Of a stretch of DNA of 64,000 nucleotides, positions 7,137 through 52,854 are shown piece after piece. How positions within the stretch are numbered: the first letter of the stretch is position 1; every line of letters begins with the position of its first letter. The stretch comes from the human T2T-CHM13v2.0 reference genome, Homo sapiens, in the NCBI RefSeq assembly GCF_009914755.1, contig NC_060925.1; one strand, 5' to 3'. Both the position numbers and the translations under genes were made by a program. Below the pieces are notes generated by a model. It saw only the letters and a list, made by a program, of their open reading frames with translations, was not told the DNA's origin and made no database searches.

Positions 7137-7280
7137 AAACTCAACATGGCTCAGTGGACTGGACCCCAGCAGAACTTAGCAGAACCCAAAAAGGCCCAGT
7201 GGAACCCAGGGGACCCACAGGGACTCAACAGGACCCAGCAGGTACCAACAAAACCTAGTGGAACTCAGAGGGGCCCAGCC
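7137..7280. repeat. Degenerate 10-bp tandem repeat (~13 copies, consensus approx. GGACCCAGCA)
   Basis: Successive decamers agaacttagc, agaacccaaa, aaggcccagt, ggaacccagg, ggacccacag, ggactcaaca, ggacccagca, ggtaccaaca, aaacctagtg, gaactcagag, gggcccagcc. Confidence 0.7.
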
Positions 7281-25999: not shown

Positions 26000-26142
26000 G
26001 TGTGTGCTGGGCATCACGGCCCCCTCACAACCCTGCAAGGTAAGACGTGTGACTCCCATTTAACAGATGAAGGAGCGAGCCTAGTGGGATTATGTAGGTT
26101 ACATTGTGAGTCAATGACAGGGTTAGGATCTGAACCCAGGAG
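26000..26142 (-). mobile_element. MIR
   Basis: ctcacaaccctgcaaggtaag...cccatttaacagatgaagg...ggatctgaacccagg. Confidence 0.7.
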
Positions 26143-26397
26143 TGAGGAGTGAATGCAGCGTCACCGGAAGGAAAAGGAAAGAAGGAGAACTGGAGGATGA
26201 TCTGTCTCAGGCAAGCTTTAGTCTGAGGTTCTAAGTCATGCTGTGAAGGTCTCTGCAGAGTCACTCCTTGGCTTCATTATGCAGAGAGCTTGTAGCCAGG
26301 TGGCACTGGGCAGGGGCTCATCCCAGGTGCCTAAACCCCACATGCATCAAAACTTAGAGGAGACCAGCGTCTTCTGCTGGTCCTTTAAAAATAGTCA

Positions 26398-26699
<302 letters not shown>

Positions 26700-26808
26700 G
26701 TCATTTGCTCTGTAGTGTCAGTTTCCAAGTCCCAAGTCTCCCATGAAAGCCAAATGCCTTCTGATATTGATGGTACTTCAGCAGGTGACTGCAGCCCAAT
26801 TGTATCGG

Positions 26809-26885
26809 ATGTTTCTGATGACAGCAGATAAGTGCCAGTGAACAGCTAAAGTTCAGTGGCACTTACCTGCTGTCATCAGAAACAT
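26809..26885. repeat. Near-perfect inverted repeat, 35-bp arms and 7-nt loop (pre-miRNA-like hairpin or cruciform)
   Basis: atgtttctgatgacagcagataagtgccagtgaac-agctaaa-gttcagtggcacttacctgctgtcatcagaaacat; 33/35 Watson-Crick pairs. Confidence 0.95.
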
Positions 26886-28846
26886 GAGGGGAGGGGATGG
26901 GATAGTGGAAGAAAGGACATAGGGAGGTGAAGGACGCAGACCCTGAAGACAAAGTCCTTCCACTCATGTGCCCACCTGCAGAAGGGGGTGCGGAAGCTTG
27001 AGCCACACACAGAGGGTCTGGTCCCAAATGCAGAGAGCCCAGGCAGTGGCTTTTCTGAGGGATAGAATGTGAGCACTTTGGATGTCTGGAATTCTGTAAG
27101 AACCCAATGGAAAGAAAATATGAGGTTTGGAAACTTCTCCTCCGAGTGCTCCTTTAGGTGTTCAGGTGGATTTTACAGAAGAGGCTGACGGCCCGAAGGG
27201 GAGGCTAGCCATCAGATTTCCATTAATGTCTCCCACCATCTCTGAGGCCTAAATGACAGGGTTCTTGAAGACAGCAACAGAACAGTGGTAACCTATATTT
27301 TATTCACTATCTTTCATGCCCTTAGCATCATATCTCACTGATACGTAGATAGACACATGTGAACGGAAGCATTTTATACGTAAACGTAGGGATGTGTGTG
27401 ACCTAGATTTAAAGGATGCATATTAAAAGAATTGTACCTAATAATATGAACTATTTTTGGCCCATGACATGCGGCCTTTAGAAGCATGACAAACCAAAAA
27501 CACTTTTACCAAATTCCTTCCCTTTACAATCCCCTACCGTCCTCCTATCTGGTCAAAATATAGCTACTTTTTTGGTACGTTGGTTTTAAAAACAGCTCTG
27601 TCCTCCAAAGATATGGCAAAGTTTTCTAGTTACTGTTTTTTAATACTTCCTGGTATTCTTAGAGTCCACAGCTTTGAGTGCAGCTGGAAAACATCTACAC
27701 AGAGGATATGTTTGGACAGGTATTGAATATAATAAACTATATTTAAATATTTATACGTGAAATTTTTTTTTATGGTGCTGTTCTTTAAATCATTGAACGA
27801 GGTCCTTTCATTTCTCCAAAAGATATATGAGCACTGTCTTTTGGCATATAGATCATTTTTGCCTTTGAAAGATGTCTCAGTTAAAAATGATTTCTACAGA
27901 TGATCTTTTACATACATTTGTTATTGTGGTGAGCGTTACATCCTGCTGTTTTACAGCGATACTTGGAGGATTTCTCCTGAAAATAGCCCTTTATTTGTGG
28001 CAAGCTGAAAGGGAGAGGGCAGGAAGAGGACTTGCGATATTTCATCTGCCTAGAGCTTAGTAAGGAGAGGAGAGGGCCGTGCAGTCCCCAGTATGACCCT
28101 CCTTCCCTGTGCTCGGGAAGCAGCTTGAGGCTAAGAGAAATATTGGGCTCTTCTCTTCTGCTAAGAGGCTTAGAATTCTGTGATTTTTATTTTCTGCTTC
28201 TGCCTGCAAGGCCCTCCTTCTCCTTTGTCAATTTGAAGAGCTCTCTTTCTATTCCTAGCAGTTATCTAGATAACAATCATTTGTTTTTGAGATTGATTCC
28301 TATAAACAGTACGTGGAGCATCTCATGGACTAAAACGTGGTAAATTGTCAAACTTCTCAGAGTAGGAAGATGTCTGCTGGCTAGGTAGAAGGTTTCTGGT
28401 TTAATGGTGAAAACAGCCAAACACACAAATAAGCAAACACGCACATAAACCACCAACTAACCCAGCCCAGCAGCAGGCGAGGTTTTCTGTCGTCCAGCAC
28501 GTGCAAGAGAAGGGCTGGGCAGCTTGATGGACATTTGTGCCGTCCACCTTGCAGGCATATGGCAGCTCCCACGTTCTCACACCATTCGACATTTGGGGTG
28601 ACCAAGTCATGCACTCTGACCAGTGAAATGCAAGTGGAAATGATAAGTGCGACTTCATGGCACAGATTTTCGGAGTCCAAGTGTTGCTATACACATTCTC
28701 TGCTTGTCTTGGCTATTTGGAAGCACATTCAGTGCTGAGCTTCCCTGGGCTTGGTGGCCGAGTGGAGTGAGGAGTGCAGACTCCCCAGCTGCCCGTAGTG
28801 ACCATGGGGCACAAGCAGGGAATAGAGCTTTCCTGTTACAGCATCA

Positions 28847-52689: not shown

Positions 52690-52854
52690 ATGCTTACCTG
52701 GCACGGGAGATATACCAGGATCCTGAAGGTGGTACTCCCAGGGTGAGGCTTATCCATTGTGCGCCAGATGTGTTGACCCTTGTGATTTCCCCAAATGTGG
52801 GAAACTCACTGCATCATTTGTGGTAGTGGGGGACTGTGTCTGTGCTCTCTCCTG
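52690..52854 (+). pseudogene. U1 snRNA retro-pseudogene, full length
   Basis: ATGCTTACCTGGCACGGGAGA...TTTGTGGTAGTGGGGGACTG...CCTG aligns end to end with U1 (about 22 substitutions and 2 indels by hand, ~85%). It is followed by 18 nt of extra sequence and A28 (52873-52900). The U1-70K loop (GATCACGAAG>GATCCTGAAG) and U1A loop (ATTGCAC>ATTGTGC) are mutated. Confidence 0.96.

What the first reader, a model, noticed from the sequence alone, without database searches (positions are those of the whole stretch)
26809..26885. 77-nt near-perfect palindrome of pre-miRNA size in unique DNA
Seen: 35-bp arms (26809-26843, 26851-26885) around a 7-nt loop AGCTAAA, with only two non-pairs (A26828/C26866, G26838/G26856). 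In a minus-strand RNA the first becomes a G-U wobble, giving 34/35 paired. Pairing stops abruptly outside the arms. No TA or 8-bp TSD and no DNA-transposon terminus that I recognise. Known: Microprocessor prefers ~35-bp stems, and many young primate miRNA hairpins are near-perfect palindromes made by template switching. Inference: a de novo hairpin born in a single event, possibly an unannotated or young miRNA/endo-siRNA source, an ADAR substrate, or a cruciform site. I do not recognise it as a named miRNA.
Basis: partly seen in the sequence, partly recalled or inferred. Interest (0 to 1): 0.8.

Follow-up and report, generated by a model that had tools for sequence, protein, structure and literature searches.

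The report
Single-copy 77-nt palindrome in CAMTA1 intron
A real, unique 77-base palindrome sits in an intron of the human CAMTA1 gene; it looks like one of the thousands of hairpins made by replication copying errors, and nothing found here shows that it is a microRNA gene.

Summary
Arms 26809-26843 and 26851-26885 are 33/35 complementary around a 7-nt spacer. RNA folds are -60.9 kcal/mol on the + strand and -60.7 on the - strand, z about -10 to -12. About 3e-7 such palindromes are expected by chance genome-wide.

It is single-copy in T2T-CHM13 and has no target-site duplication. That argues strongly against a MITE. It fits a one-step inverted duplication by short-range template switching, a published mechanism. 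That origin is inferred, not shown, because no orthologous genomes were available.

The miRNA reading has no positive support:
- No Rfam family comes near its gathering score.
- The supplied RefSeq table lists no MIR gene in the window.
- The loop is 7 nt, where 10 nt or more is preferred.
- Basal UG and CNNC motifs are absent at canonical positions on both strands.
- Only 0.9% of 6,054 comparable hairpins are annotated miRNAs.

Verdict: an ordinary new example of a known kind of mutation product. Function is unshown. Interest is low.

The parts
26809..26843 (.). Left arm of the inverted repeat (35 nt)
   Evidence: arm I1. Unique in the genome apart from its partner arm at up to 3 mismatches.
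26844..26850 (.). 7-nt spacer/loop AGCTAAA
   Evidence: It is unpaired in the RNA and DNA folds.
26851..26885 (.). Right arm of the inverted repeat (35 nt). It differs from the reverse complement of the left arm at 2 positions (26856, 26866).

Best explanation
This is a single-copy inverted duplication in a CAMTA1 intron. It was most likely made in one mutational step. During DNA replication or repair synthesis the polymerase switched template, either to the opposite strand or by folding back on the nascent strand. It copied about 35 nt of adjacent sequence in reverse-complement and then returned (short-range template-switch mutation, Loytynoja-Goldman four-point model). Two later point substitutions account for the two non-pairs. 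The result is a DNA palindrome. In CAMTA1 pre-mRNA it folds into a very stable 33/35-bp hairpin. There is no evidence that the hairpin is processed or has a function, and it is most likely a neutral by-product. Shown here: the palindrome, its stability, its uniqueness, and the absence of transposon or known-miRNA hallmarks. Inferred: the template-switch origin, the age, and neutrality.
For: The anatomy is 35-nt arms, 94% complementary, 7-nt spacer, with abrupt ends. The chance expectation is about 3e-7 genome-wide, so a copying mechanism is needed. It is single-copy. The 136-nt and 695-nt queries hit only the locus itself. The 35-mer arm at up to 3 mismatches hits only the two arms. The 24-mer at up to 3 mismatches adds 2 hits, both at 3 mismatches, against about 1.3 expected by my arithmetic (not from a call); the reversed-pattern control gave 0. 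There is no direct repeat at the ends. Published precedent (PMC10710096; abstract, introduction and Results read): template switches create whole stems in one event from sequence with no prior similarity. That paper reports 53,666 putative events in genic regions on the primate-to-human lineage. Of these, 31,007 made new RNA stems and 6,054 were of miRNA size. The arm difference of 2/35 is consistent with a perfect copy followed by neutral decay. The point estimate is about 25-60 My, depending on an assumed rate of 0.5-1.2e-9 per site per year, with a 95% range of about 3-200 My.
Against: No orthologous sequence could be examined. The expected signature is therefore unverified: one arm present in outgroups and unrelated sequence in place of the other. 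Neither the copied arm nor the branch is known. The locus was not found in the lists I could read. These were the PMC10710096 supplements (0 CAMTA1 hits in 3 files). They also included the great-ape event table of PMC7954356 (no chr1 start with prefix 7188-7198). The last was 21 of 22 supplement files of PMC9435742. Those coordinate searches rest on my own rough hg38 estimate, made from recalled gene bounds. An older inverted repeat kept similar by arm-to-arm conversion or by selection cannot be excluded.
Confidence: 0.7

Rival explanations
1. The hairpin is an unannotated, probably young, miRNA or hairpin-siRNA precursor. It would be released from the CAMTA1 intron (+ strand) or from an antisense transcript by Drosha/DGCR8 and Dicer.
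For: The stem is 35 bp, the length the Microprocessor prefers as stated in the introduction of PMC10710096. [quoted passage not shown] It folds at -60.9 kcal/mol and persists in a 401-nt context.
Against: No Rfam miRNA family is near threshold: the best is mir-891 at 31.2 bits against a gathering score of 90, with mir-4477 at 30 against 74, and the sub-threshold hits span five unrelated miRNA families. At gathering scores the whole window holds only the U1 pseudogene. The hub's RefSeq table has no MIR gene. The loop is 7 nt, against 10 nt or more preferred. There is no UG at -14/-13 and no CNNC at +16 to +18 on either strand, and no CNNC at all within 40 nt 3' of the stem on the + strand (motif positions are recalled from Auyeung 2013 and Fang & Bartel 2015). 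The lower stem is fully paired, so there is no mismatched-GHG motif. Only 57 of 6,054 comparable hairpins are annotated miRNAs. The arm sequences occur in 0 papers' main text.
Confidence: 0.06
2. It is the relic of a short palindromic DNA transposon (a MITE such as MADE1-like elements), so it is an inserted element and not a local duplication.
For: Its size and near-perfect palindromic form resemble MADE1-type elements (about 80 bp; recalled, not from a call).
Against: The assembly holds no other copy at the sensitivities tested. There is no TA or other target-site duplication: the flanks are TATCGG and GAGGGG. Arms that are 94% alike would mean a recent insertion, and recent insertion should leave similar copies elsewhere.
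Confidence: 0.03
3. It is an old hairpin whose pairing is maintained by selection or by arm-to-arm conversion. It would act as a structured intronic RNA element, for example an ADAR-edited dsRNA or a splicing/processing regulator of CAMTA1.
For: It forms about 35 bp of nearly perfect dsRNA in a transcribed intron. One of the two differences is wobble-compatible on the - strand.
Against: There is no Rfam family, no annotated functional element at this place in the hub's table, and no conservation data. The + (sense) strand carries the two real mismatches, while the better-paired - strand is antisense to the only annotated gene.
Confidence: 0.08
4. It is a private variant of CHM13 or a local assembly or polishing artefact, not a fixed feature of the human genome.
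For: Only one assembly was examined.
Against: Two substitutions between the arms suggest age rather than a fresh artefact. Artefactual palindromes from long reads are usually kilobase-scale (recalled). It is not among the segregating template-switch clusters in the 21 supplement files searched, though that search is weak.
Confidence: 0.03

Closest known systems
Template-switch-mutation (TSM) hairpins of the primate lineage (Monttinen, Frilander & Loytynoja 2023, PMC10710096; Loytynoja & Goldman 2017, seen in a search listing only)
   Same: A short inverted copy lies next to its template in unique, mostly intronic DNA. The stem is near-perfect and of miRNA size, with a few later point changes and no transposon hallmarks.
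   Different: For this locus the ancestral and derived states were not reconstructed, so membership is inferred from anatomy alone. The locus was not found in the lists I could read.
Young TSM-derived human miRNA genes such as hsa-mir-4713 and hsa-mir-576 (named in PMC10710096)
   Same: An intronic, sense-strand hairpin with a stem of about 35 bp.
   Different: Those have miRBase entries and read stacks. This one has no annotation, no Rfam match, a 7-nt loop and none of the tested processing motifs.
MADE1 and other palindromic MITEs (source of the mir-548 family; recalled)
   Same: A near-perfect palindrome of about 80 nt.
   Different: Those are multi-copy with TA target-site duplications. 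This one is single-copy with no duplication.

Membership tests
Canonical animal pri-miRNA (Microprocessor substrate) | Stem of about 35 bp | tested here: met
   35-position stem with 33 pairs (+) or 34 pairs (-).
Canonical animal pri-miRNA (Microprocessor substrate) | Unstructured apical loop of 10 nt or more (criterion as stated in PMC10710096) | tested here: not met
   The loop is 7 nt in the RNA folds of both strands.
Canonical animal pri-miRNA (Microprocessor substrate) | Helper motifs: basal UG, downstream CNNC, mismatched GHG in the lower stem (positions recalled from Auyeung 2013 and Fang & Bartel 2015) | tested here: not met
   There is no UG at -14/-13 and no CNNC at +16 to +18 on either strand, and no CNNC within 40 nt on the + strand. 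The lower 19 pairs are perfect. These motifs help processing but are not obligatory.
Canonical animal pri-miRNA (Microprocessor substrate) | Membership of a described miRNA family or gene | tested here: not met
   The best Rfam hit is 31.2 bits against a gathering score of 90. Nothing on the hairpin reaches gathering scores. The hub's RefSeq table has no MIR gene. miRBase and MirGeneDB were not searchable here.
Canonical animal pri-miRNA (Microprocessor substrate) | About 22-nt reads with uniform 5' ends, 2-nt 3' overhangs, AGO loading | not testable with these tools
   No small-RNA or CLIP data are available.
Template-switch-mutation inverted repeat (four-point model) | Inverted fragment of at least 15 nt lying close to its template | tested here: met
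   A 35-nt inverted copy lies 7 nt from its template. The threshold is as used in PMC10710096.
Template-switch-mutation inverted repeat (four-point model) | Not explained by a repeat family or low-complexity DNA | tested here: met
   Single-copy. Arms are 57% A+T and not simple sequence.
Template-switch-mutation inverted repeat (four-point model) | Parent-to-child change on a phylogeny: one arm replaces unrelated ancestral sequence in one step | not testable with these tools
   No primate or mammalian orthologues are held; the genome 'has no relatives here'.
MITE / DNA-transposon relic | Multiple related copies in the genome | tested here: not met
   Only the locus itself was found. The 24-mer search adds 2 chance-level hits. 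Copies below about 85% identity could be missed.
MITE / DNA-transposon relic | Target-site duplication flanking the terminal inverted repeats | tested here: not met
   The flanks ...TTGTATCGG and GAGGGGAGG... share no direct repeat.

The most novel reading that the evidence does not exclude
The palindrome is a young, primate-lineage hairpin gene in the making. Transcribed with the brain-expressed host CAMTA1, it would already yield low levels of Drosha/Dicer products (predicted 5p CAGCAGAUAAGUGCCAGUGAAC) or serve as a site-specific ADAR substrate. That would make it an uncatalogued de novo small-RNA locus caught soon after a template-switch birth.
Probability: 0.05. Interest if true: 0.45.

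Novelty: new member of a known kind. Interest (0 to 1): 0.15.

Why it matters
It is a clean textbook-style example of how one replication error can create a complete miRNA-sized hairpin in unique intronic DNA. Published work already counts thousands of such hairpins, and about 1% of them became annotated miRNAs, so one more example changes little. It would gain some interest only if small-RNA or editing data showed that it is processed in brain, where the host gene CAMTA1 is active.

Tried and rejected
1. Known RNA family: the Rfam E-value scan of 26000-27700 and the gathering-score scan of the whole window gave nothing on the hairpin above threshold. The sub-threshold hits on the hairpin (mir-891, mir-4477, mir-2007, mir-3338, mir-3927) are unrelated families that score any long stem.

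2. Repeat family: four whole-genome searches found no family.

3. Literature by sequence: two 20-nt arm motifs occur in 0 papers' main text. Supplements of other papers are not searched by that tool, so novel-miRNA lists could still hold it.

4. Literature by gene: CAMTA1 + host gene + intronic + novel miRNA gave 0 papers.

5. Published template-switch lists: there is no entry for this locus. One file of PMC9435742, one oversized file of PMC7954356, one oversized file of PMC10710096 and the external dataset were not readable. My hg38 position is an estimate.

7. U1/5' splice-site link: the 9-mer ACTTACCTG in the right arm occurs 2 times in the window against 0.53 expected, and 7 of 100 shuffles reach that count. 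I judged it chance.

8. Microhomology at the switch points: reading the loop by eye, the self-complementary AGCT suggests no simple priming scheme that reproduces the observed asymmetric loop. I dropped this line.

Full report
**Observation**

The window holds the palindrome exactly as described. The arms are 26809-26843 and 26851-26885, each 35 nt and 94% complementary, separated by the 7-nt spacer AGCTAAA. The non-pairs are A26828/C26866 and G26838/G26856, and neither lies in a CpG context.

- As RNA, the + strand forms 33 of 35 pairs at -60.9 kcal/mol (z -10.2).
- The - strand forms 34 of 35 pairs at -60.7 kcal/mol (z -11.8), with the A/C position becoming a G-U wobble.
- None of 200 shuffles folds as well on either strand.
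- As single-stranded DNA the same hairpin has -36.5 kcal/mol, z -10.6.
- It remains intact in a 401-nt RNA context.
- The flanks do not pair.
- The analytic expectation for such a palindrome is about 3e-7 per genome.
- In my scan of the 64-kb window for short-spacer inverted repeats, the next best have 14-17-nt AT-rich arms.

**Is it a repeat or transposon?**

The window's own assembly (3.1 Gb, 24 contigs) could be searched.

- A 136-nt query centred on the palindrome found only itself and its own reverse-strand self-match.
- A 695-nt query gave the same result.
- The 35-nt arm at up to 3 mismatches found only the two arms, and the reversed-pattern control found 0.
- A 24-nt core at up to 3 mismatches added two hits, on contigs C3 and C16, both at exactly 3 mismatches. 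My arithmetic, not a call, expects about 1.3 by chance.
- The sequences next to the arms (…TTGTATCGG | arm … arm | GAGGGGAGG…) share no direct repeat, so there is no target-site duplication.

A MITE whose arms are still 94% alike would be a recent insertion and should have similar siblings, and there are none. One limit applies: copies below roughly 85% identity could escape these searches, and Dfam was not available.

**Is it a known RNA?**

A permissive Rfam scan of 26000-27700 gave only far-sub-threshold hits on the hairpin:

| Family | Bits | Gathering score |
|---|---|---|
| mir-891 | 31.2 | 90 |
| mir-4477 | 30 | 74 |
| mir-2007 | 28.5 | 100 |
| mir-3338 | 26 | 95 |
| mir-3927 | 19 | 90 |

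mir-891 also scored on the - strand. These are unrelated families, which is the pattern any long stem gives. At gathering thresholds the whole window holds one match, the annotated U1 pseudogene at 52690-52854. The RefSeq table supplied with the finding lists no MIR gene in the window. The arm sequences occur in the main text of 0 papers. A gene-based literature search also gave 0.

**Fitness as a Microprocessor substrate**

The 35-bp stem length is ideal. The introduction of PMC10710096 states a preference for a 35-bp stem and an apical loop of 10 nt or more. Here the loop is 7 nt.

I used the recalled geometry of a Drosha cut 13 nt from the basal junction on the 5p side and 11 nt on the 3p side. 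With it, neither strand has UG at -14/-13 or CNNC at +16 to +18. The + strand, which is the sense strand of the host gene, has no CNNC anywhere in the 40 nt after the stem. The lower stem is perfectly paired, so the mismatched-GHG feature is absent. These motifs are helpers, not requirements, so they lower the odds without excluding processing.

**Most likely origin**

Chance is excluded and transposition is disfavoured, so a local copying mechanism is needed. Short-range template switching is the documented one.

PMC10710096 (abstract, introduction and Results read) shows that such events create whole stems in a single step, including at sites with no earlier similarity. [quoted passage not shown]

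- 53,666 putative events
- 31,007 new RNA stems
- 6,054 stems of miRNA size
- 57 of those 6,054 (0.9%) annotated in miRBase

[quoted passage not shown] This hairpin also lies in an intron: the hub's table gives no CAMTA1 exon in the window.

The two arm differences fit a perfect copy followed by neutral substitutions. The Jukes-Cantor distance gives about 30 My at 1e-9 per site per year. The Poisson range is about 3.5-103 My, or 3-200 My across the assumed rates. The rates are assumptions, and two events give almost no precision.

**What could not be shown**

No orthologous genome is held ('no relatives here'). The defining test is an outgroup with only one arm, and it was not possible.

I looked for the locus in published event lists and found nothing:

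- PMC10710096 supplements: 0 CAMTA1 hits in 3 files, with one file too large to read.
- PMC7954356 great-ape table (4,016 rows): no chr1 row with a start beginning 7188 to 7198; the only hits were 8-digit positions on chr2, chr9 and chr11.
- PMC9435742: 21 of 22 files searched, 0 hits.

These coordinate searches depend on my rough GRCh38 estimate of about chr1:7.19 Mb. I derived it from recalled CAMTA1 bounds, so a miss is weak evidence.

**Verdict**

A MITE origin is about 0.03. A maintained structured-RNA or ADAR-substrate role is about 0.08, and a private variant or artefact about 0.03.

It is a new example of a known and common kind of mutation product, so interest is low.

Noticed in passing
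window 26402-26699: A full-length Alu with a poly-A tail at 26685-26699, flanked by the direct repeat GTCATTTG (26394-26401 and 26700-26707). It ends 110 nt upstream of the palindrome. The sub-threshold Rfam hits to Metazoa_SRP, mir-1268, mir-3135 and mir-1285 all fall inside it.
   Followed up: partly
window 26861-26869 (+), i.e. the right arm: The right arm contains ACTTACCTG. Its reverse complement CAGGTAAGT is a consensus 5' splice site on the - strand, and the left arm has the G-to-A version CAGATAAGT. The window's U1 pseudogene starts ATGCTTACCTGG. The 9-mer occurs 2 times in the window against 0.53 expected, and 7 of 100 shuffles reach that count, so it is probably coincidence.
   Followed up: yes
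window 26886-26918: Directly 3' of the palindrome lies a purine tract with no C for about 33 nt. It holds the G-runs GGGG (26888-26891), GGGG (26893-26896) and GGG (26899-26901), then GG (26907-26908). A G-rich, possibly quadruplex-prone tract at the boundary could have stalled a fork and favoured template switching. This is pure speculation.
   Followed up: no
window 26779-26786: The 8-mer CAGCAGGT in the 5' flank equals the reverse complement of 26865-26872 in the right arm, and resembles CAGCAGAT at 26822-26829 in the left arm. A match this short is plausibly chance.
   Followed up: no
window 52690-52854: The annotated pseudogene RNU1-8P scores 104.5 bits against Rfam U1 (gathering score 69.5) over the full model. 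Its 5' end differs from the U1 5' end as I recall it (ATGCTTACCTG, against recalled ATACTTACCTG).
   Followed up: partly
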